Assembly (NCBI GenBank): GCA_947624185.1
Contig: CANQJG010000003.1
Location: forward strand, 1 to 40,239
Reading direction: 5' to 3'
Origin: an uncultured Clostridia bacterium
Lineage (GTDB): Bacteria; Bacillota; Clostridia; TANB77; CAG-508
Length of the DNA: 40,239 nt
Position numbers and translations under genes: made by a program. The notes below the pieces were generated by a model that was not told the origin of the DNA, did no database searches, and saw nothing but the letters and a program-made list of their open reading frames with translations. Every line of letters begins with the position of its first letter. Positions within the stretch are counted from its first letter, which is position 1. Below, in pieces: positions 26,872 to 40,214 of this stretch.

Positions 26872-27061
26872 ATTCTATAAATATAATAGTGTTCGCACCT
26901 TGCTGTCGCAAATTCCATTATGCCTTCATGGCTGTGCAATTAATATACTTTGTGCAATACATAATGCCATTCGGCGCTTGTATGTAATTTGCTTCATTCG
27001 CCCTTCGCTAACGCTCCGGTTGGGCGCTGCGCGGTTGCTTCAACTATTATATTTATAGAAT
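26872..27061 (-). repeat. Dispersed structured element, copy A (inverted relative to B and C)
   Basis: Core 26898-27034 is the reverse complement of the B/C core; closed by a perfect 19-bp IR attctataaatataatagt / actattatatttatagaat. Confidence 0.92.
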
Positions 27062-27065
27062 AATA

Positions 27066-28586
27066 TTACATCCAATCATAATCTTTTAATTTAAATAACA
27101 ATTGAATTAAAATAACACTTATAAATATTCCACTTGCTGGAGCTGTGAGTACGTGACCTGCGAGCAATGCGGCTACAAAGCTTATAAATACTGAATATAT
27201 CATAAACCATACTTCTTGATTTACTATTGCTTTCTTGAATTTTTTTATTAATTCTTTTATTACTAATATTGCAAAGACTACAAAAGGTATGAAATACAAT
27301 ATAAATCCTGCAATTCCGTCGCATATTACAATGTCAAAATAATCCATTTCTATTAATTTTAATGGTTGTACTATATACCATTTCTCAGTCATATAGCCTA
27401 TTCCAAATATTTTGCTTTTTACATTTGCATTTTTGTATAATTCTAAATTATCCCTTAAGAAATCATCTCTTCCGCTGATGAGTGAATCTTGTCTTTTTTC
27501 TTCTTCTTCCTCTTCTTTTTCTTCTGTATCACTTTCGCCTGAAGTTTCATTATTTTTATTGAAATTAAATTCTATTTTTGGAAATGTAACTCCATTGGTT
27601 AGTTTTATATTTTTTCCTACTGGAGAATATGGTACAAAAATGAACGATATAATTATTACCCCAATTGTAACAAGTCCTTTTTTTAAGTATTTCATCTTGT
27701 CTTGCTTTTGAGAATTTTCACTTTCAGCATTGCTGATGCTTTTAGTACTGCCCATACTTTTTTCTTCAGCACTGCTACTTTGTTTAGCTATATTGCTGCT
27801 TGTTTTTGTACTAAAAAATTTTACTACACATACAATTAGAGTTATTACTGCTAGACCAATTGCGCCAAAAAATGGTGCTTTTGTGCCCATTTCTAATACA
27901 GAGAAAATATATAATGCAAGTGTAATAAAATTAAATATTTTTCCTTTTTCGCCATTAATCAAGCTAAGTACTAAAATCGGAGCTGTGCAAGACATGATTA
28001 CTCCGATTTCATTTGCAGCGTAGAAAAGCCCAATTGTACCTTTTTTATCCGGATAAGTGTTATATGCTACACCGAAAACCCTTGCTAATAATATAACTAG
28101 AGCGTAGCCAAATAAAGCATAAATTATGGTTTTATTTTCTATTTTAATATCATTTTTTTTGAATATTGGTATTAAGGCAATAAAAATAATTGGTAAATAA
28201 AATGTTTTTACTATTCCTTTTATTTGAGTAAACATCCCTGTCATACCAAAATTTGCATAGCAATTTACTAGGAATAATATTAAATAAATAGCTAGAATTG
28301 CGTAATATATCAGCATTGTTATTCTATACTTTTTATTACTGATAAAAAGTGCATAGATTGCTGTTGCTATCATGAAAAATGTTCTTACAAATATTCCTAG
28401 TGTGAGCATTTCATTTACATTTCTAACTAACAAAGAAGTTATCACATCTATAATTGGTTGAATTAAAATGTAAAAGACTATGATTTTTTTGATGTTTATT
28501 TTTTTTGTCATTTTTGCCATTATTCCTTTCGCCATTATTCCTTTCATTGTGGAATTAATAATTATATTATTAATTCCCAGTTGCAT
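27066..28586 (-). CDS. O-antigen ligase/polymerase-like membrane protein
   Basis: ILIQPIIDVITS, GLFYAANEIG, GTK, LISGR, IEMDYFDI, AGHVLTAP; true start probably one of the ATGs at about 28510-28550. Confidence 0.8.
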   Translation of the reverse strand: MQLGINNIIINSTMKGIMAKGIMAKMTKKINIKKIIVFYILIQPIIDVITSLLVRNVNEMLTLGIFVRTFFMIATAIYALFISNKKYRITMLIYYAILAIYLILFLVNCYANFGMTGMFTQIKGIVKTFYLPIIFIALIPIFKKNDIKIENKTIIYALFGYALVILLARVFGVAYNTYPDKKGTIGLFYAANEIGVIMSCTAPILVLSLINGEKGKIFNFITLALYIFSVLEMGTKAPFFGAIGLAVITLIVCVVKFFSTKTSSNIAKQSSSAEEKSMGSTKSISNAESENSQKQDKMKYLKKGLVTIGVIIISFIFVPYSPVGKNIKLTNGVTFPKIEFNFNKNNETSGESDTEEKEEEEEEKRQDSLISGRDDFLRDNLELYKNANVKSKIFGIGYMTEKWYIVQPLKLIEMDYFDIVICDGIAGFILYFIPFVVFAILVIKELIKKFKKAIVNQEVWFMIYSVFISFVAALLAGHVLTAPASGIFISVILIQLLFKLKDYDWM

Positions 28587-28624
28587 TTAATTAATTAAAT
28601 GCGATTTATTGTATTTATAATTTT

Positions 28625-29764
28625 CTAGTCTCCTAGACAAATTCCTATATTTCTTGCAGTTTCTACAAGTTCATCATCCATTGTAACTAAACGAACATTG
28701 CTTTCTTTAGTTCCACCTTCAACTGCACCAAGCTCTTTATTATTTCCTACCACATCTTCTAAAGGTACATAATCAAGCTTGCCATTTTTTATAACTGTAA
28801 GCACTCCAAATTTTCCTTCCATTGCAAGCTCCATAGCTTTGGCTCCATATTTTGTTGAAAGCACTCTATCGTAAGCTGTAGGCGTTCCACCCCTTTGCAT
28901 ATAACCAAGTGTTGTGCATCTTGATTCTAGTCCTGTTAATTTTTCTAATTCTTTTGATACTTTGTCTCCAGCTCCTGCAAATTTTACTGCTATTCCTGTT
29001 CCGTCGCTAACATTACTATTTACTGTTGAAGCAGTACCGTCTTTAGGCTGTGCACCTTCTGCCACAACAACAATGCCGAATTGCTTTCCTTTTGCAATCC
29101 TTCTTTGTAAGCTTTGTGCAACTTTATTTATATCATAAGGAATTTCCGGAATAAGTGCAACATCAGCACCACCTGCAATTGCAGACTCTAAGGCAATCCA
29201 GCCTGCATATCTTCCCATAACTTCTAGACACATTATTCTGTGATGAGTTTCAGCAGTCGTATGAAGTCTGTCTATAGCTTCAGAAGCTACTGATACTGCA
29301 GTATTGTATCCAAATGTTATATCAGTACAAGCTACATCATTATCAATTGTTTTTGGAACTCCAATTGTTTTTATCCCTTTGATAAATAAGTCTCTTGCAG
29401 ACTTCTGAGTACTATCTCCACCAAGTGTAAATACACAGTCAAATCCGTCTTTCATTACATTTTGAACACAAAGGTCTGATAAATCTCTGTATTCCACTGT
29501 TCCGTCCGGATTAGTTACTTTGTAATGAAAAACTATTGTATTTGTAGATGAACCAATTATTGATCCACCTTTTGGCAATATTCCGTCAGCCATTGGATTA
29601 AAATCTAATCTTACAAATTTATTTTCAAGAAGTCCCTTATAGCCGTCAATAAATCCATAGCACTCTATTCCATAAACTTCACATGATTTTTTTATGGCTC
29701 TAATAACTGGATTAAGTCCAGCAACATCCCCACCATTTGCTAGTATAGCAACTCTTTTTAACAT
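28625..29764 (-). CDS. pfkA: 6-phosphofructokinase (PfkA family, phosphoryl donor uncertain)
   Basis: GGD.AGLN, PKTIDND, DRLHTTAETH.R...EVMGRYAGWIA, LIPE, LGYMQRGG.PTAYDR. Confidence 0.9.
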   Translation of the reverse strand: MLKRVAILANGGDVAGLNPVIRAIKKSCEVYGIECYGFIDGYKGLLENKFVRLDFNPMADGILPKGGSIIGSSTNTIVFHYKVTNPDGTVEYRDLSDLCVQNVMKDGFDCVFTLGGDSTQKSARDLFIKGIKTIGVPKTIDNDVACTDITFGYNTAVSVASEAIDRLHTTAETHHRIMCLEVMGRYAGWIALESAIAGGADVALIPEIPYDINKVAQSLQRRIAKGKQFGIVVVAEGAQPKDGTASTVNSNVSDGTGIAVKFAGAGDKVSKELEKLTGLESRCTTLGYMQRGGTPTAYDRVLSTKYGAKAMELAMEGKFGVLTVIKNGKLDYVPLEDVVGNNKELGAVEGGTKESNVRLVTMDDELVETARNIGICLGD

Positions 29765-29802
29765 TTGTTTACCTCCTAATTATATGTTAATTTTAACATT
29801 TT

Positions 29803-31365
29803 TTATATTTCTTGATCATCTAAATCTATTTTTTTATCATTTGTTGTTTTCTCTGTATTTTGAATATTTCTTGCCTTTTTATATTCATTATAAATTCTTT
29901 TCCATTTTAATGGATCATATAATTTATTTCTTGTTTGTACTATCCTTAATGCTTTGTTTATTGTATCTAATGCAATTTTGTCTTCTTTCAACTCTTTTTT
30001 ATGTAATTTTAAATATCCTTCTGAGTGTTTATATATTTTTGCTTTAAAAGCCGCTTCTGATTGAACTAATACTTGTAATGTCTCATCTTCTCCTTCTATT
30101 AATTCTTTTATTTCTTCTATTTTATTTAACATATCTTTTGAATCTGATTTTTCTATTAATTTTCTTGCTTTCCCTATTGCATCTAATTCTTTATTTTTTT
30201 CTGTAAAGATTTCTTCAAAGTCATCTTCTGTTTCATCTAATTTTATTGATTCTACTCTTACAATTGGTTCTTTTTTTCTGTCTTTATTTCTTTCTTCTTC
30301 TGCGATACTCCTTAAACTATTCATTGCTTTTACATTGTCAGGTTCTATCTTTAATACTTTTTCTAATAATTCTTTTTCTCTGTCTTTATTTCTTTCTTCT
30401 TTTGCGATTCTTATTAAACTATATATTGTTATTACATTATTAGGCTCTAATTTTAATATTTTTTCTAATAATTCCTTTTCTCGTTTTTTATTTTGCTCTT
30501 CTCTTGCAATTCTTATTAAGCTACTCATTGCTATTGTATTATTAGGCTCTATTTCTAATATTCTTTCTAGTAATTTCTTTTCTTGATCTTTGTTTTGCTC
30601 TCTTCTTGCAATTTTTATTAATCTACCCATTGCTTTTACATTATTAGGCTTTAATTCTAATAATTTCTCCAGTAATTCCTTTTCTCGATTTTTATTTTTT
30701 TCTTCTCTTGCAATTCTTATTAAGCTGCTCATTGCTATTATATTATTAGGCTCTATTTCTAATATTTTTTCTGATAATTCTTTTTCTCGATTTCTATTTT
30801 TTTCTTTCCTTGCTATAATTATTAAATTAATCATCGTTCTTGCATTATCAGGATCTACATTTAATATTTTTTCTAGTAATTCTTTTTCTCGATTTCTATT
30901 TTTCTCTTCTCTTGCAATTTTTGTTAACGTATACATTGCTATTACATTATTAGGCTCTATTTCTAATATTTTTTCTGATAATTCTTTTTCTCGATTCCTA
31001 TTTTTCTCTTTTATTGCTATACCTATTAAACTAATCATTACTTGTACATTGTCATTTTCTACTTTTAATATTTTTTCCAGTAATTCTTTTTCTTCTTCTT
31101 GATTACCTTTTTGTTTTGCTATTAGCATTTCTAAAGATAATATAACAATTCTATTTGATTTTGGGCTTAATTTATTAATTTCTATTCTTGCTTCTTCAAT
31201 GTTTCCTTCTTTTATTAGTCTTTTAGCTTTTTTTCTTATTTCTATTTCTTTTTTCCATTTGTTCAAAGTTGAAATAGATATTTGAGTATCTTTACTTATC
31301 TGTTCTAAGTCTTCATTTGCTTTTATTCTTTCTTCTATCTCATTTTTTACTTTATAAGAATACAT
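29803..31365 (-). CDS. N-terminal HTH plus eight 34-aa TPR-like repeats, function unknown
   Basis: LEQISKDTQISISTLNKWKK HTH-like; repeats NxxREKELLEKILxxEPNNxxAMxxLIxIAREEx; start at ATG 31365 (GGGGGA RBS) or up to 31386. Confidence 0.8.
   Translation of the reverse strand: MYSYKVKNEIEERIKANEDLEQISKDTQISISTLNKWKKEIEIRKKAKRLIKEGNIEEARIEINKLSPKSNRIVILSLEMLIAKQKGNQEEEKELLEKILKVENDNVQVMISLIGIAIKEKNRNREKELSEKILEIEPNNVIAMYTLTKIAREEKNRNREKELLEKILNVDPDNARTMINLIIIARKEKNRNREKELSEKILEIEPNNIIAMSSLIRIAREEKNKNREKELLEKLLELKPNNVKAMGRLIKIARREQNKDQEKKLLERILEIEPNNTIAMSSLIRIAREEQNKKREKELLEKILKLEPNNVITIYSLIRIAKEERNKDREKELLEKVLKIEPDNVKAMNSLRSIAEEERNKDRKKEPIVRVESIKLDETEDDFEEIFTEKNKELDAIGKARKLIEKSDSKDMLNKIEEIKELIEGEDETLQVLVQSEAAFKAKIYKHSEGYLKLHKKELKEDKIALDTINKALRIVQTRNKLYDPLKWKRIYNEYKKARNIQNTEKTTNDKKIDLDDQEI
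30289..31104 (-). repeat. 8 x 102-bp coding tandem repeat
   Basis: Eight ungapped 34-codon units visible at DNA and protein level. Confidence 0.9.
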
Positions 31366-31389
31366 TGAAAATTCCCCCATAGTCATTTA

Positions 31390-32247
31390 TTATTTTGTTC
31401 TTTTGCGAAGATTTTCCCTATTTTTCTCTGCCTTGTTTTTCTTAGCAATCTTTACTATTAATATTATTACTAACAAAAATAGTATTACTGCAACGGCAAC
31501 TAAAAAGGCTATTGCTTTGTTTTCATCTTTAAAAAATTCTGTAACATAATCTTTTGCTTTAATAAAGAAATCATTATTTTCTACTTTAGTAATAATTGTT
31601 TTTTCTACTGCTACATTTACTGTGATTTCATAAACTGTAGTATCTTTTCCGTTTCTTAAAATAATTGTAATTATATTTTCTCCTGACTCTAAGCCTGTGT
31701 TTCCTATTACTTCAATTTCTGCACTTTCAATAGAAGCAACTGCATTTACATTAACATCAGTACTTTCTCTATCACTTTTCATATTAGCTGTATATTTAAA
31801 GTTCAAATCACTTAATGGCTCATTTATAGTGGCTTTATCAATACTTAATTCTGTAAGCTTTAAACCATTATCTTCCTGTTTGGTTACAATTATGTTGTAT
31901 GTTTTCGTTGTTTTATTTTGTGCTGTTACAACAATTTTAATTGTACTTTCCTTGTTAGATAATCTCGTATTTCCACTTATCCTTTTAGTAGCCTTTTCGT
32001 TTTCAGTTTCGGCATTTACTTCAAGTGAAGATACACTTGTTGGCACAACTAGATAATAATTTAATGTATATTTATTAAATTCAGGTGACAAGGTATATCC
32101 TTCAACTGATAAAGATTTTAAATAATTGTTTGCTTTTTCACTTTGTATGGTATTTGTAGAGCTACTAGTAGCTTGCGAAAAATTAATTCCACTTATTAAA
32201 AAAATTATTGTTAATATACTGATTAATACAATGTTTGATTTTTTCAT
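31390..32247 (-). CDS. Membrane-anchored protein with two cadherin-like beta-sandwich domains
   Basis: NNYLKSLSVEGYTLSPEFNKYTLNY...IVVTAQNKTTKTYNIIVTK; second similar domain; signal peptide and C-terminal TM. Confidence 0.8.
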   Translation of the reverse strand: MKKSNIVLISILTIIFLISGINFSQATSSSTNTIQSEKANNYLKSLSVEGYTLSPEFNKYTLNYYLVVPTSVSSLEVNAETENEKATKRISGNTRLSNKESTIKIVVTAQNKTTKTYNIIVTKQEDNGLKLTELSIDKATINEPLSDLNFKYTANMKSDRESTDVNVNAVASIESAEIEVIGNTGLESGENIITIILRNGKDTTVYEITVNVAVEKTIITKVENNDFFIKAKDYVTEFFKDENKAIAFLVAVAVILFLLVIILIVKIAKKNKAEKNRENLRKRTK

Positions 32248-32380
32248 TTTATAATTCCTTCCTTAGTTCAAATTGTTTGACAATAATTGATTTTTATTTA
32301 TGTAAAATTGCGTATTTTTCCTGTATAAATTTTATCATAAGATAATAAAAAGTCAATACAATATTCGCTTATAATTTTAT

Positions 32381-32580
32381 AAATACATGAAAATAGTTGT
32401 TTTTGAATACGCCGCGCAGCGCCCAACCGGAGCGTTAGCGTAGGGCGAATGAAGCAAATTTCATACAAGCGCCGAATGGCATTATGTAAGCTTTATGAAG
32501 TAAATTAATTGCAAAGCCATGAAGGCATAATGGAATTTGCGACAGCAAGGCATGAAAAAAACAACTATTTCCATGTATTT
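32381..32580 (+). repeat. Dispersed structured element, copy B
   Basis: Core 32412-32550; 24-bp IR with one mismatch (32381-32404 / 32557-32580). Confidence 0.92.
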
Positions 32581-32608
32581 TTATATTTAATAATTATATT
32601 TTTTATAT

Positions 32609-33193
32609 TTAAATAATAAACTTTGTAATTGCTAGTCCATCTCCAACTTCTAAAATTTCAGTGGATAAATTCGGATTTTCTGTAACATTTTTTATATATT
32701 CTCTTAAATGATTTACAGCAGTTCTTTGTTTGTGCTTGTTATAATCACTCATTACATAACCTTTATATAAAATATTATCTGCAAAAATTACTCCATTTTT
32801 ATTAAGCATCCTCAAAGCGTGTTCTAAGAAAAAAGGATATTTTGTTTTAGCAGCGTCAATAAAAACCATATCATATTTATTGTCCATTTTAGGTAATATT
32901 TCTACTGCGTCTCCTTCATAAATATTAATTACATTTTCTTTTTCCATTATTTTTATATTTTCTTTTGCTTGTTTAACCATATTTTCGTCACGCTCTATCG
33001 TATCTATTACTCCGCCTTCGCTTAAAAACTGAGAAAAACATATTGCAGAATATCCTACTGCTGTACCAATTTCAAGTATTCTATTTATCTTTTTATTTTC
33101 CATATATTTTTCAATAACTTCTAATGTGTCGTCCATAATAATTGGTACATGATTAGCTATCGCTCTTTGCTTTATTTTAGATAATTTATCCAT
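32609..33193 (-). CDS. Class I SAM-dependent O-methyltransferase (YrrM/TrmR-like)
   Basis: VPII, ILEIGTAVGYSA, YDMVFIDAAK, IFADNILYKG, VGDGLAI. Confidence 0.88.
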   Translation of the reverse strand: MDKLSKIKQRAIANHVPIIMDDTLEVIEKYMENKKINRILEIGTAVGYSAICFSQFLSEGGVIDTIERDENMVKQAKENIKIMEKENVINIYEGDAVEILPKMDNKYDMVFIDAAKTKYPFFLEHALRMLNKNGVIFADNILYKGYVMSDYNKHKQRTAVNHLREYIKNVTENPNLSTEILEVGDGLAITKFII

Positions 33194-33304
33194 TATATAT
33201 TTGCTCCTTTAGATTTTTACATTATTCTATATTATATATTAAGTTGTCAATTTTTTCCAATACTCATATAATTTAATAGCACATTTTTTATAATACTATT
33301 TTAA

Positions 33305-33505
33305 TCAAAATCAAAAAAATATAATAGTTGTAGCAACCGCGCAGCGCCCAACCGAAGCGTTAGCGAAGGGCGAATGAAGCAAATTACATACAAGCGCCGA
33401 ATGGCATTATATATTGCATAAAGTACACTAATTGCATAGCCATGAAGGCATAATGGAATTTGCGACAGCAAGGTGCAAAGACTATTATATTTTTTAAGAT
33501 TTTGA
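33305..33505 (+). repeat. Dispersed structured element, copy C
   Basis: Core 33337-33473; ~24-bp imperfect IR (33305-33328 / 33481-33505). Confidence 0.92.
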
Positions 33506-33542
33506 ATATATAGTAACAGAAAATTATAATCATCCACAATGT

Positions 33543-39725: not shown

Positions 39726-40000
39726 TTGTTTTTCCTTTCTATTCTATTTTTTTCTCATTTTTACTCTAGTAATTTTCTATAACTCATAAAATATTATCGA
39801 TGTGTCATGAAATATCAATACTTCTTCAATATTTTTAATTTACCCTATTTTGCTTTTTTAATTCACATTTTCTATATTTTGTATTCGGTTTGTTCCGACT
39901 ATTTTTATTTTACCATTACATTTTTTCACTGTCAATTATTTTTACAACTTTTGCAATTTATAAAAATAATCGTAAAAGTAAAGCTACAAAAGACAACAAA

Positions 40001-40038
40001 AAGCCACGTATTTTAGATTAAACTAAAACACATAGCTT
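40001..40038 (-). terminator. Intrinsic terminator for a transcript entering from the right edge
   Basis: Minus strand aagctatgtgttttag-6 nt-ctaaaatacgtggctt (16 pairs including G-U) followed by ttt. Confidence 0.8.
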
Positions 40039-40081
40039 CTATTTCTATGTTTCCACCCGTTTCCTATTATATTTAAAACAT

Positions 40082-40214
40082 TCAAACTGTTGATCAATGA
40101 TGCCATTATATCTACTAAAGTAATTTTTTCTAGACCGATTAACAAATATATGGTAGAATATGGTGTGTGTGTGTGTGTCAGACTGTTGAACAATGAGCCT
40201 ATTATGTCTACTAA
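40082..40214. repeat. Two 37-bp direct repeats (31/37 identical), 96-bp period, dif/Xer-site-like
   Basis: tcaaactgttgatcaatgatgccattatatctactaa (40082-40118) and tcagactgttgaacaatgagcctattatgtctactaa (40178-40214). Confidence 0.85.
40163..40178. repeat. (GT)8 microsatellite
   Basis: Read directly. Confidence 0.95.

What the first reader, a model, noticed from the sequence alone, without database searches (positions are those of the whole stretch)
26872..33505. Multicopy ~200-bp structured element with conserved core and copy-specific, still-complementary closing stems
Seen: three intergenic copies (26872-27061 minus; 32381-32580 and 33305-33505 plus) share a GC-rich 137-139-bp core in very AT-rich DNA; A and C differ at only 6 of 137 positions. 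Each is closed by a 19-24-bp inverted repeat with a common inner part (aatagt/actatt). The outer part differs in every copy (attctataaat..., aaatacatgaa..., tcaaaatcaaaaa...) yet stays complementary, and the next stem also covaries (gcaacc/ggtgc in A and C, tacgcc/ggcatg in B). The core has nested stems: cgccc/gggcg, gcaaatt.cat/atg.aatttgc, gcc-gaat-ggc and gcc-atgaa-ggc. Known: classic MITE terminal repeats are conserved in sequence, unlike these. Copies lie in both orientations relative to the genes, arguing against a riboswitch. No transposase or clear target duplication is visible. Inference: a non-autonomous element recognised as folded ssDNA/RNA (REPIN- or IS200/IS605-derivative-like), or a multicopy ncRNA; it may be undescribed.
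Basis: partly seen in the sequence, partly recalled or inferred. Interest (0 to 1): 0.82.

Follow-up and report, generated by a model that had tools for sequence, protein, structure and literature searches.

The report
Structured palindromic repeat family in Clostridia
The three copies belong to a large, previously uncatalogued family of about 150-230-bp intergenic repeats in uncultured gut Clostridia, built from a GC-rich, sequence-conserved multi-hairpin core closed by a long AT-rich stem whose two arms change together, and it behaves like a mobile element whose mobilising enzyme is unknown.

Summary
The three window copies (26872-27061 -, 32381-32580 +, 33305-33505 +) are members of a family with 43 covariance-model hits in this 1.04-Mb draft genome. 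The family occurs in 22 of 44 genomes of the genus at 1 to 58 hits each, and two named relatives carry 63 and 64 copies. The architecture is: arms of 30-60 nt that are complementary within a copy; a covarying 5-6-bp helix P1; an almost invariant junction holding two small hairpins (H1, H2), mostly spelling GCGNAGC or GCGNNAGC; a variable, covarying hairpin H3; and GCGACAnCAA. On 78 diverse copies, 23 of 25 modelled pairs show compensatory changes. No Rfam family, plasmid record or phage record matches. Mobility is supported by patchy distribution, presence/absence differences between sister genomes, and one outgroup-polarised 235-bp gain with no visible target duplication. Y1 (IS200/RAYT), IS630, IS4/5 and rve transposases do not track the element. 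Orientation relative to genes is even, and G-U excess over A-C is small, so an RNA role is not shown. My best reading is a non-autonomous element recognised as a folded single strand, probably DNA. It is a new variant of a known kind, of moderate to high interest.

The parts
26872..27061 (-). Copy A, long form, type-1 arms. Model hit (P1 + core) at 26895-27038; conserved core at 26900-27034. Its end lies 5 bp downstream of the stop codon of the O-antigen-ligase-like gene (27066-28586, -).
32381..32580 (+). Copy B, long form, type-2 arms. Model hit at 32408-32554; core at 32412-32548. It is antisense to the flanking minus-strand genes. The site is empty in G007 (17 bp instead of 267 bp).
33296..33513 (+). 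The site is empty in G007 (81 bp instead of 339 bp) and occupied in G002.
33305..33332 (+). Copy C, left arm (AT-rich, pairs with 33477-33505).
33333..33338 (+). Copy C, P1 5' strand (GCAACC). It pairs with 33472-33476 (GGTGC).
   Evidence: 6 of 6 P1 pairs covary
33339..33345 (+). Copy C, H1 mini-hairpin GCGCAGC (GCGNAGC type).
   Evidence: motif rule from PMC13037366 (abstract and passages read)
33352..33369 (+). Copy C, H2 domain: CC-GAA-GC-GTTA-GC-GAA-GG. It has a covarying closing pair, a purine-rich internal loop, and the apex GCGTTAGC.
33379..33463 (+). Copy C, H3 variable hairpin. The base is GC-AAATTACAT...ATGGAATTT-GC. The long-form extension adds two small GCC...GGC hairpins.
   Evidence: (10 of 10 modelled upper pairs covary in A2)
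33462..33471 (+). Copy C, invariant 3' module GCGACAGCAA. Its first two bases close H3.
33477..33505 (+). Copy C, right arm.

Best explanation
The copies belong to a family of non-autonomous, MITE-like mobile repeats. Their conserved, recognised part is not the termini. It is an internal GC-rich core that folds into a four-helix junction (P1, H1, H2, H3), closed by a 30-60-bp AT-rich stem.

Shown:
- The family is multicopy and patchily distributed.
- It is gained at new intergenic sites without a visible target duplication, usually just after a stop codon. It is lost by deletion.
- P1, H2 and H3 covary.
- The two arms of a copy match each other far better than they match the arms of other copies.
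- About 45 junction nucleotides are nearly invariant across genera.

Inferred:
- The element is recognised and propagated as a folded single strand by a factor acting in trans. Only the structure of the arms matters, not their sequence.
- The strand that folds is the one I call sense. H1 and H2 spell GCGNAGC or GCGNNAGC only on that strand.
- I favour single-stranded DNA over RNA, for three reasons. These words are the known 'mini-hairpin DNA' motif found at priming sites of single-stranded phage and plasmid DNA. Loops such as GTTA, GTCA, GCCA and GCTA break the RNA GNRA rule. There is no orientation bias relative to host transcription.
- The core may serve both as the recognition site and as a built-in signal for second-strand priming.
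- The mobilising enzyme is unknown. A multicopy PD-(D/E)XK (Rpn-like, PDDEXK_2) gene family is the only candidate that co-occurs, and that evidence is weak.
For: Copy number and spread:
- 53 BLAST matches and 43 model hits in the own 1.04-Mb genome.
- 22 of 44 genomes of the genus have hits, at 1-58 per genome. None were found in 22 others, including genomes rated 99-100% complete.
- 24 of 151 genomes of the order have hits, nearly all in one family: f1 21/52, f2 0/9, f3 1/52, f4 0/4, f5 1/33.
- G041 has 63 copies and G042 has 64.
- 72 of the 80 listed loci of a pattern scan of species genomes lie in records titled Clostridia, Clostridium, Clostridiales or Eubacteriales MAGs.

Gain and loss:
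- G007 lacks copies B and C at syntenic sites.
- In 6 of 20 G002 loci the alignment to G000 is interrupted by 128-306 bp present only in G002.
- At one of these sites G007 (2-bp gap), G021 (9-bp gap) and G000 share a tight stop-codon-to-RBS junction. The 235 bp in G002 are therefore a gain.
- The G002 orthologue of the C10 copy has lost 141 bp.

Structure:
- A1 (35 copies): 87.3% of cells paired against 76.1% in shuffles, and 17 of 29 pairs with double changes.
- A2 (78 copies): 88.3% against 70.7%, 23 of 25 pairs with double changes, 0 of 500 shuffles as high, and slid controls at 33-39%.
- Arm complementarity over 40 nt, own against cross: G041 0.874 against 0.565, with the own arm the best partner in 17 of 17 copies; G000 0.729 against 0.573, best partner in 23 of 32.

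Strand and molecule:
- H1 fits GCGNAGC or GCGNNAGC in 69 of 78 copies, and H2 in 47 of 78. Of these, 12 H2 loops are GNYA, which is not GNRA.
- In G000, 71 of the 218 such words in the genome lie in the 46 5' modules, and 68 of those are on the sense strand.
- PMC13037366 (abstract and passages) describes these words as extraordinarily stable DNA mini-hairpins at the G4, St-1 and alpha3 primase sites (GCGAAAGC, GCGTTAGC), in ssiA, and in N4 promoters.
- Orientation relative to flanking genes is about even.

No catalogue match:
- Rfam.
- Plasmid and phage collections.
- Viral contigs: 0 hits with an exact word and 2 chance-like hits with the degenerate pattern.
Against: - No mobilising gene was found. 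There is no recurrent neighbouring protein among about 100 loci. Y1_Tnp, DDE_3, DDE_Tnp_1 and rve are absent or sporadic in five copy-rich genomes.
- The PDDEXK_2 link is only co-occurrence among related genomes. The family is also present over its cut-off in about 12 of 22 genomes without the element.
- Insertion boundaries are fuzzy in AT-rich DNA, and only one gain is polarised by outgroups.
- All 5 testable copies are shared between G041 and G042. Some sites are occupied in species about 80-87% identical. Many copies are therefore old, and activity may be rare.
- About a dozen short-form copies in G000 sit inside a larger duplicated gene-family unit. They probably spread with that unit rather than by transposition.
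- A modest G-T/G-U excess over A-C (arms 73 against 44; core helices 43 against 33) fits either a weakly selected RNA or a single-stranded DNA fold, and the counts are not independent.
- GNRA-compatible loops are also common (46 of the 116 conforming loops).
- No single-stranded intermediate, transcript or priming activity has been observed.
Confidence: 0.5

Rival explanations
1. A multicopy structured non-coding RNA. Each copy is transcribed, alone or as part of a neighbouring mRNA. The long A-U stem is cut by RNase III, releasing a junction RNA of about 100-150 nt that binds a protein or has catalytic activity.
For: The architecture is typical of functional RNAs: invariant junction nucleotides flanked by covarying helices. 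Purine-rich internal loops (GAA/GAA, GA/GA) and many GNRA-type loops are present. There is a small G-U excess on the sense strand. The core is GC-rich in a genome of 28.8% GC. The structure is absent from Rfam, so it would be new.
Against: - No promoter or terminator is conserved across subfamilies. A TTGCGA-17-TATTAT site exists only with type-1 arms, and promoter-like sites are not enriched overall, 37 against 42.6 expected.
- Orientation relative to flanking genes is even.
- In the short-form units the core is antisense to the unit's transcription.
- Half of the genus lacks the element altogether, including complete genomes. It is therefore dispensable.
- Triloops and GNYA loops fit DNA mini-hairpins better than RNA rules.
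- The G-U to A-C ratio is only about 1.3-1.7.
Confidence: 0.17
2. The repeats are, or have become, host cis-elements at the 3' ends of genes. Their long hairpins would act as terminators, insulators or mRNA-stability determinants, as described for ERIC, Correia and other repeats. The core would be a passenger.
For: In G000, 18 of 25 copies with both neighbours close by lie between tandem genes. Their core is 32-74 nt from the upstream stop codon, so the arm ends within about 0-30 bp of it. At site C the G007 allele has a conventional terminator-like hairpin where G000 has the element. The arms read A-tract - stem - T-tract in both orientations. The Delihas review (PMC3184786, passages read) reports many repeats at 3' ends that are co-transcribed and affect mRNA stability.
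Against: A passenger core would not stay nearly invariant across genera while the arms diverge to background similarity. Stems next to the T-run are AT-rich, unlike intrinsic terminators, and the scan called no terminator in the copies. The gain at L059 and the G007 copy at L042 each lie between a stop codon and the next gene's ribosome-binding site, where a terminator is not expected. Location after stop codons may only reflect where insertions are tolerated.
Confidence: 0.12
3. Derivatives of IS200/IS605 ends or REP/REPIN elements, mobilised by a Y1 (HUH) transposase or RAYT.
For: The shared features are hairpin-based recognition, no target duplication, and intergenic dispersal. Y1_Tnp genes exist in 21 of 44 genomes of the genus.
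Against: Y1_Tnp was found in 0 of 5 copy-rich genomes (G000, G002, G041, G042, G043). In the genus it was found in 9 of 18 genomes with 3 or more copies, against 10 of 22 without the element. It is missing from G055 (32 hits, 90% complete), G061 (12 hits, 99% complete), G057 and G058. TnpB scores over its cut-off in 1 of 5 genomes. The size and the four-helix core are unlike REP (20-40 nt) or IS200/IS605 subterminal hairpins (recalled).
Confidence: 0.04
4. Chromosomal relics of single-strand origins (sso/ssi) from rolling-circle plasmids, ICEs or single-stranded DNA phages that integrated repeatedly.
For: The element resembles ssoA in size (about 160 nt), extensive single-strand folding and orientation-specific motifs. 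The CS-6 word TAGCGT is present in copy B and many G000 copies. ssoA features were taken from PMC4598088 and PMC5703833 (passages read). Mini-hairpin words mark priming sites (PMC13037366).
Against: There was no match to 72,556 plasmid or 50,697 phage records. No Rep, relaxase or phage genes recur beside copies. The RSB box of ssoA was not seen by eye, only a shared ATGCCG in G000-type H3 that is absent from other subfamilies. CS-6 is replaced by AAGCGA in most relatives. Tens of dispersed copies, each with its own arms, do not fit integration relics.
Confidence: 0.04

Closest known systems
Bacterial MITEs that fold into long hairpins (ERIC, Correia/NEMIS, RUP)
   Same: They share a size of 100-250 bp, an intergenic location often at gene 3' ends, many copies, no coding capacity, patchy distribution between relatives, and a long hairpin when single-stranded (PMC3184786, passages read).
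   Different: Classical MITEs have sequence-conserved terminal inverted repeats, flanking target duplications (often TA), and a partner IS with matching ends. Here the termini are the least conserved part, the internal core is the most conserved, no duplication is visible, and no partner IS was found.
REP/REPIN elements with RAYT, and IS200/IS605-derived palindrome-associated elements
   Same: Recognition appears to be by hairpin structure rather than by inverted terminal sequence. There is no target duplication. The elements are non-autonomous.
   Different: No Y1/HUH gene tracks the element. The element is 5-10 times larger than a REP. Its conserved part is a four-helix junction, not a short imperfect palindrome with a conserved tetranucleotide (REP features recalled).
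Integron attC sites
   Same: The sequence varies while the palindromic structure is kept. attC sites are recognised as a folded single DNA strand of one polarity (recalled).
   Different: attC sites carry the conserved RYYYAAC...GTTRRRY ends in the opposite order, flank gene cassettes next to an integrase, and lack a conserved GC-rich core (recalled). Here the copies are dispersed, nothing lies between copies in tandem arrays, and no cassette structure exists.
Single-strand origins and initiation signals (ssoA, ssiA, G4-type origins) and 'mini-hairpin DNA' GCGNAGC/GCGNNAGC
   Same: The region is 100-200 nt, strongly folded and strand-specific. It contains GCGNAGC/GCGNNAGC words, including GCGTTAGC, the word reported at the St-1 and alpha3 primase sites. 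TAGCGT (CS-6) is present in some copies (PMC13037366, PMC4598088, PMC5703833).
   Different: There is no sequence homology to known sso. No RSB box was seen. The copies are not on a plasmid or phage. There are tens of chromosomal copies. Priming activity is untested.
Rfam structured-RNA families of Clostridia and metagenomes
   Same: A GC-rich structured intergenic element in an AT-rich genome.
   Different: No family reaches its gathering score in the window. Nothing overlaps the copies at E up to 10. The only hits on 10 divergent copies are far-below-threshold chance matches to MIR841, SraG and tmRNA.

Membership tests
Classical MITE | Terminal inverted repeats conserved in sequence among copies | tested here: not met
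   Arms of different copies are at background similarity (0.565 in G041, 0.573-0.618 in G000), whereas the arms within a copy match at 0.874 and 0.729. Only a loose TTCTTATAG-like outer box and a TATATA box recur in some copies.
Classical MITE | Target-site duplication flanking the element | tested here: not met
   No direct repeat of 3 bp or more is present at the outgroup-polarised gain. None is consistent at the other filled/empty pairs. Boundaries in AT-rich DNA are uncertain by a few bases.
Classical MITE | Autonomous partner IS with matching ends in the same genomes | tested here: not met
   Genome counts with a match, out of 5 copy-rich genomes: PF13358 0, PF01609 0, rve 1 over cut-off, PF01797 0, PF07282 1 over cut-off. 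IS110 is absent from G000, G002, G006, G007 and G021. Draft genomes can miss IS copies.
Classical MITE | Short, non-coding, multicopy, with presence/absence differences between relatives | tested here: met
REP/REPIN-RAYT or IS200/IS605 derivative | A Y1 (HUH) transposase gene co-occurring with the repeats | tested here: not met
   0 of 5 copy-rich genomes. In the genus, 9 of 18 genomes with 3 or more copies against 10 of 22 without the element.
Integron attC | RYYYAAC...GTTRRRY ends, cassette array, adjacent IntI integrase | tested here: not met
   The inner arm boxes read ...TAGTT ... AACTA..., the opposite order, on either strand. The copies are dispersed with no cassettes. An integrase search was not run.
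ssoA-type single-strand origin | RSB box and CS-6 (TAGCGT) in a roughly 160-nt folded region on a rolling-circle replicon | tested here: not met
   CS-6 is present only in some copies (for example copy B). The RSB box was not seen by eye. There was no plasmid or phage match. The motif definitions come from PMC4598088 (passages read).
ssoA-type single-strand origin | Priming of complementary-strand synthesis on single-stranded DNA | not testable with these tools
   This needs an M13 or plasmid single-strand conversion assay.
Mini-hairpin DNA motif (GCGNAGC / GCGNNAGC) | The word itself, on one strand | tested here: met
   H1 fits in 69 of 78 copies and H2 in 47 of 78. In G000, 68 of 71 words inside the elements lie on the sense strand. 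The motif definition comes from PMC13037366.
Any Rfam 15 family | A score at or above the family's gathering threshold | tested here: not met

The most novel reading that the evidence does not exclude
This is a new class of hairpin-closed mobile element that travels as a folded single DNA strand and carries its own second-strand priming module, the two mini-hairpins in a four-way junction. It would be cut and joined by a structure-specific PD-(D/E)XK (Rpn-like) nuclease instead of a DDE or HUH transposase. That would explain why only the shape of the arms is conserved and why no target duplication is made.
Probability: 0.1. Interest if true: 0.85.

Novelty: new variant of a known kind. Interest (0 to 1): 0.62.

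Why it matters
If the reading is right, this is a repeat family that inverts the usual logic of miniature transposable elements. The conserved, recognised part is internal and structured, while the ends are free to drift as long as they pair. Only a few systems work this way (attC sites, REP/RAYT, IS200/IS605 ends), and each of them revealed a distinct single-strand DNA enzymology. The family is abundant, up to about 64 copies in genomes of 1.0-1.9 Mb. It fragments assemblies of an uncultured gut lineage and sits at the ends of genes, where it may alter expression. It also offers a natural set of more than 100 variants of a compact four-helix junction with DNA mini-hairpin motifs, which makes the questions of what binds it and whether it primes DNA synthesis directly testable. 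If instead it proves to be an RNA, it is a new structured RNA class missing from Rfam.

Tried and rejected
Known RNA family. Rejected: cmscan found nothing at gathering score, nothing over the copies at E up to 10, and nothing relevant on 10 divergent copies.

Coding. A 19-codon frame starting at ATGAAGC is broken by the 2-nt indel between subfamilies and by loop indels (seen by eye). Rejected.

Arms derived from the target (core inserting into a pre-existing palindrome). Rejected for the one polarised gain, because the empty alleles in G000, G007 and G021 carry no palindrome.

Arms or 'tails' copied from the flank of a donor copy. The tails of six filled alleles gave only low-complexity matches elsewhere. 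Longer alignments showed that the tails are the degenerate outer arms, homologous between copies.

In-place compensatory change between orthologous copies. Too few orthologous pairs and substitutions were available to test it. The few changes seen were one-sided.

A hypervariable 3' flank between G041 and G042. This turned out to be indel-rich but homologous intergenic DNA.

A conserved 'master' locus in genomes with a single copy. Of the 7 single-copy loci in which the script located the element (10 fetched), only the G120 and G154 loci are syntenic, between rpsO and pnp.

A recurrent neighbouring gene. None was found.

A pseudoknot between columns 43-46 and 101-104 of A1. No covariation was seen. 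An alternative register is a tandem G-A pair extending H3, plus T44-A100 and G45-C99. It is only compatible with the G024 variants and was not tested.

Expression. Nothing can be said about transcription.

Literature. Two searches for compensatory or palindromic repeats in Clostridia returned no paper on this element.

Reverse transcriptase. RVT_1 is present in 34 of 44 genomes of the genus but absent from G002 and G007. There is no correlation with the element.

Full report
WHAT IS THERE

The three copies are real and sit at the stated coordinates. Their cores are 137, 139 and 137 nt. A and C differ at 6 of 137 positions. Each copy is closed by a long AT-rich inverted repeat. Copy C folds far better than shuffled sequence, both as RNA (-61.7 kcal/mol, z -5.69) and as DNA (-35.7 kcal/mol, z -5.13).

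The flanking genes are ordinary:
- an O-antigen-ligase-like protein;
- a group-1 glycosyltransferase;
- a cadherin-like-domain protein;
- an O-methyltransferase;
- TypA/BipA.

No Rfam family reaches its threshold in the window. Nothing overlaps the copies even at E up to 10.

THE FAMILY

The window is contig C3 of a draft genome of 1.04 Mb in 87 contigs, 28.8% GC, rated 77% complete.

Copy C finds 53 matches in this genome. A motif scan finds 40 5' modules. Of these:
- 28 also carry the 3' module: 23 long cores of 134-137 nt and 5 short cores of 90-95 nt;
- 10 of the remaining 12 are truncated copies or run off a contig end;
- 2 are spurious.

A short form of about 150 bp lacks the inner part of the variable hairpin. 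It also occurs in tandem arrays.

Of the 80 listed, 72 lie in records titled uncultured Clostridia, Clostridium, Clostridiales or Eubacteriales MAGs from rabbit, goat, buffalo and human gut samples. The other 8 are GC-rich chance matches in unrelated phyla.

With a covariance model built from 35 diverse copies (R1):
- 22 of 44 genomes of the genus have hits. The largest counts are 58, 51, 43, 35, 32, 28 and 26, and the smallest is 1. The other 22 have none, including genomes rated 99-100% complete.
- 24 of 151 genomes of the order have hits, almost all in one family: f1 21/52, f2 0/9, f3 1/52, f4 0/4, f5 1/33.
- Two well-assembled named relatives, G041 and G042, carry 63 and 64 copies.

Plasmid and phage collections give no match. 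Viral contigs give only two chance-like hits.

ANATOMY

Across the family the layout is constant:
1. A left arm of 30-60 nt.
2. P1, of 5-6 bp.
3. GCG(T)(A)AGC, which is H1.
4. GAYCAA.
5. H2.
6. GCGAnTGRAGC.
7. H3, a hairpin with 3 to 92 nt between its closing GC pairs.
8. GCGACAnCAA.
9. P1', then the right arm.

On 35 copies, 87.3% of cells are paired against 76.1% in shuffles. Seventeen of 29 pairs carry changes on both sides.

On 78 copies aligned to the model, the figures are 88.3% against 70.7%. Twenty-three of 25 pairs have double changes, no shuffle out of 500 reaches the observed values, and slid controls give 33-39%. That alignment is fitted to the model and leans towards it, but the slid and shuffled controls are far away.

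The helices in detail:
- P1 changes freely: GTGAC/GTCAC, GAGCT/AGCTC, GCACC/GGTGC and others.
- The closing pairs of H2 covary: CC/GG, AC/GT, GC/GC, AG/CT.
- H2 ranges from a bare GC-GNA-GC to more than 20 nt. It often has a GAA/GAA or GA/GA purine loop.
- About 45 junction nucleotides are invariant or nearly so.

THE ARMS

Within a copy the arms are complementary. Between copies they are hardly alike.

| Genome | Own arms, match over 40 nt | Arms of different copies | Own arm is the best partner |
|---|---|---|---|
| G041 | 0.874 | 0.565 | 17 of 17 copies |
| G000 | 0.729 | 0.573 | 23 of 32 copies |

(All.)

Over 133 distinct copies the median aligned stem is 36 bp. Similarity between copies decays with distance from the core, with a TATATA box and, in some copies, a TTCTTATAG-like outer box. 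This is the reverse of a classical MITE.

MOBILITY

G007 is about 80-86% identical to G000 in this region. It lacks copies B and C at syntenic sites, with 17 bp instead of 267 and 81 bp instead of 339. G002 is 95-97% identical and shares copies A and C.

In 6 of 20 G002 loci, 128-306 bp present in G002 are missing from G000.

One case is polarised by outgroups. G000, G007 (2-bp gap) and G021 (9-bp gap) all have a tight stop-codon-to-RBS junction. The 235 bp in G002 are therefore a gain. The inserted DNA is homologous over its whole length to other copies. The real arms are thus longer than the well-paired part. No target duplication and no palindrome are visible at the empty site.

Decay by deletion is seen too:
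- The G002 orthologue of one copy has lost 141 bp.
- One G000 site keeps a 41-bp remnant in inverted orientation.

Other copies are old:
- All 5 testable copies are shared by G041 and G042.
- Two G000 sites are also occupied in G006 or G007, where the element has a short H3.

About a dozen short-form copies in G000 belong to a larger duplicated unit and probably spread with it.

WHERE IT SITS

Of 25 G000 copies with both neighbours within 600 bp, 18 lie between tandem genes, 5 between convergent genes and 2 between divergent genes. The core is 32-74 nt from the stop-codon side. The element's orientation relative to the genes is about even.

WHO MOVES IT

No protein family recurs next to the copies.

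| Pfam family | Result |
|---|---|
| Y1_Tnp | 0 of 5 copy-rich genomes |
| DDE_3 | 0 of 5 |
| DDE_Tnp_1 | 0 of 5 |
| rve | 1 of 5 over cut-off |
| TnpB (PF07282) | 1 of 5 over cut-off |
| Y1_Tnp, genus | 21 of 44 genomes, no relation to the element |
| IS110 (PF01548), genus | 9 of 44 over cut-off, none in G000, G002, G006, G007 or G021 |
| RVT_1, genus | 34 of 44, missing from G002 and G007 |

The only family that co-occurs is PDDEXK_2 (Rpn-like). It is multicopy and often lies 150-350 bp from contig ends:
- It is present in all 18 genomes of the genus with 3 or more copies, in G052 only as fragments.
- It is present in G041, G042 (fragments only) and G043.
- It is also present over its cut-off in about 12 of the 22 genomes without the element.

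Among related draft genomes this is a lead, not evidence.

RNA OR DNA

For RNA:
- The design is invariant junction plus covarying helices.
- Purine-rich internal loops are present.
- There is a small G-U over A-C excess on the sense strand: 73 against 44 in the arms and 43 against 33 in the core helices. These counts are not independent.

For single-stranded DNA:
- H1 and H2 spell GCGNAGC or GCGNNAGC in 69 and 47 of 78 copies. These include 58 triloops and 12 GNYA loops that break the RNA GNRA rule.
- In G000, 71 of the 218 such words in the genome lie in the 46 5' modules, and 68 of those are on one strand.
- These words are the 'mini-hairpin DNA' motif. A 2026 review (PMC13037366, abstract and passages read) places it at the primase sites of G4 (GCGAAAGC) and St-1/alpha3 (GCGTTAGC, the H2 word of the window copies), in ssiA, and in N4 promoters.
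- There is no orientation bias relative to transcription.

ssoA origins are folded regions of about 160 nt carrying RSB and CS-6 (TAGCGT) (PMC4598088 and PMC5703833, passages read). TAGCGT occurs in copy B and others, but RSB does not. The likeness is therefore functional at most.

VERDICT

The element is a new, widespread family of structured, MITE-like repeats with an inverted conservation pattern. Its mobiliser is unknown, and whether it acts as DNA or RNA is unresolved.

I hold 'mobile or formerly mobile selfish repeat' at about 0.85. I hold the full mechanism, a folded single strand, probably DNA, acting in trans, at 0.5.

Noticed in passing
window about 40000-40200; G000 contigs C12, C15, C16, C24, C30, C33-C35, C38, C44, C50, C54, C65, C66, C73, C76 and others: A second repeat, with 22 matches of its 16-base terminator word at up to 2 mismatches. 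On the opposite strand it reads: ribosome-binding site, a small frame MKKLESVARV followed by a (CA)n or (GA)n dinucleotide run (His-Thr repeats in one frame), then a conserved terminator-like hairpin. The run length differs between copies, which looks like a phase-variable contingency locus. In about 16 of the 22 the hairpin end abuts a truncated copy of the structured element, cut at different points (my reading of the flanks printed).
   Followed up: partly
G000 C35:8800-10236 (-), C38:5002-6120 (-), C54:4501-6075 (-), C30:191-424 (-): A paralogous family of large proteins whose N-terminus (..KGITLVALVVTIIIMLILAG..) looks prepilin-like by eye. They lie directly downstream of the short-form element arrays. 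Pfam gives only weak fn3-type hits and no N-methyl domain at E 0.001 or better.
   Followed up: partly
G000 C5:17764-18435 (+), C54:6897-7514 (-), C53:5-154 (-); many genomes of the genus: PDDEXK_2 (Rpn-like 'recombination-promoting nuclease / putative transposase') genes are multicopy, up to 9 per genome in the genus and 12 in G043. They often lie 150-350 bp from contig ends, like an IS. The C54 copy lies next to the small-frame unit and a short-form element.
   Followed up: partly
G000 C30:420-790, C42:3760-4080, C76:2560-2940; L181:4526-4834: Tandem arrays of two or three short-form or minimal elements, separated by about 11 bp or abutting. In these arrays the outer arm of one unit can also pair with the neighbouring unit's arm.
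   Followed up: no
window 33460-33488 (+) and 26911-26883 (-): An outward-facing promoter-like site, TTGCGA-17 nt-TATTAT, is formed by the invariant 3' module and a type-1 right arm. Other type-1 copies have a perfect TATAAT. The site is not present with type-2 arms or in other subfamilies.
   Followed up: no
L264 (G120:C3) and L270 (G154:C52): A single copy lies between rpsO (S15) and pnp (PNPase) in two genomes assigned to different families. Their flanks are nearly identical. G154 is rated 72% complete with 4% contamination, so a binning artefact or a transfer is possible.
   Followed up: no
G042:C8:28512-33872 and G042:C24:3372-8811, against L219 and L217: Two insertions of about 5.3-5.4 kb are present in G042 but not in G041, in otherwise 95-97% identical regions.
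   Followed up: no
genus-wide, for example G000:C28:7624-8205 (-): Reverse-transcriptase (RVT_1) frames of about 320-380 aa occur in 34 of 44 genomes of the genus. They are unrelated to the element's distribution.
   Followed up: no
G000 C49:5266-5403, against L032 (G007:C5): Orthologous copies differ by the roughly 50-nt inner extension of H3, which is present in G000 and absent in G007. This suggests either a deletion in G007 or homogenisation of G000 copies towards the long form.
   Followed up: no
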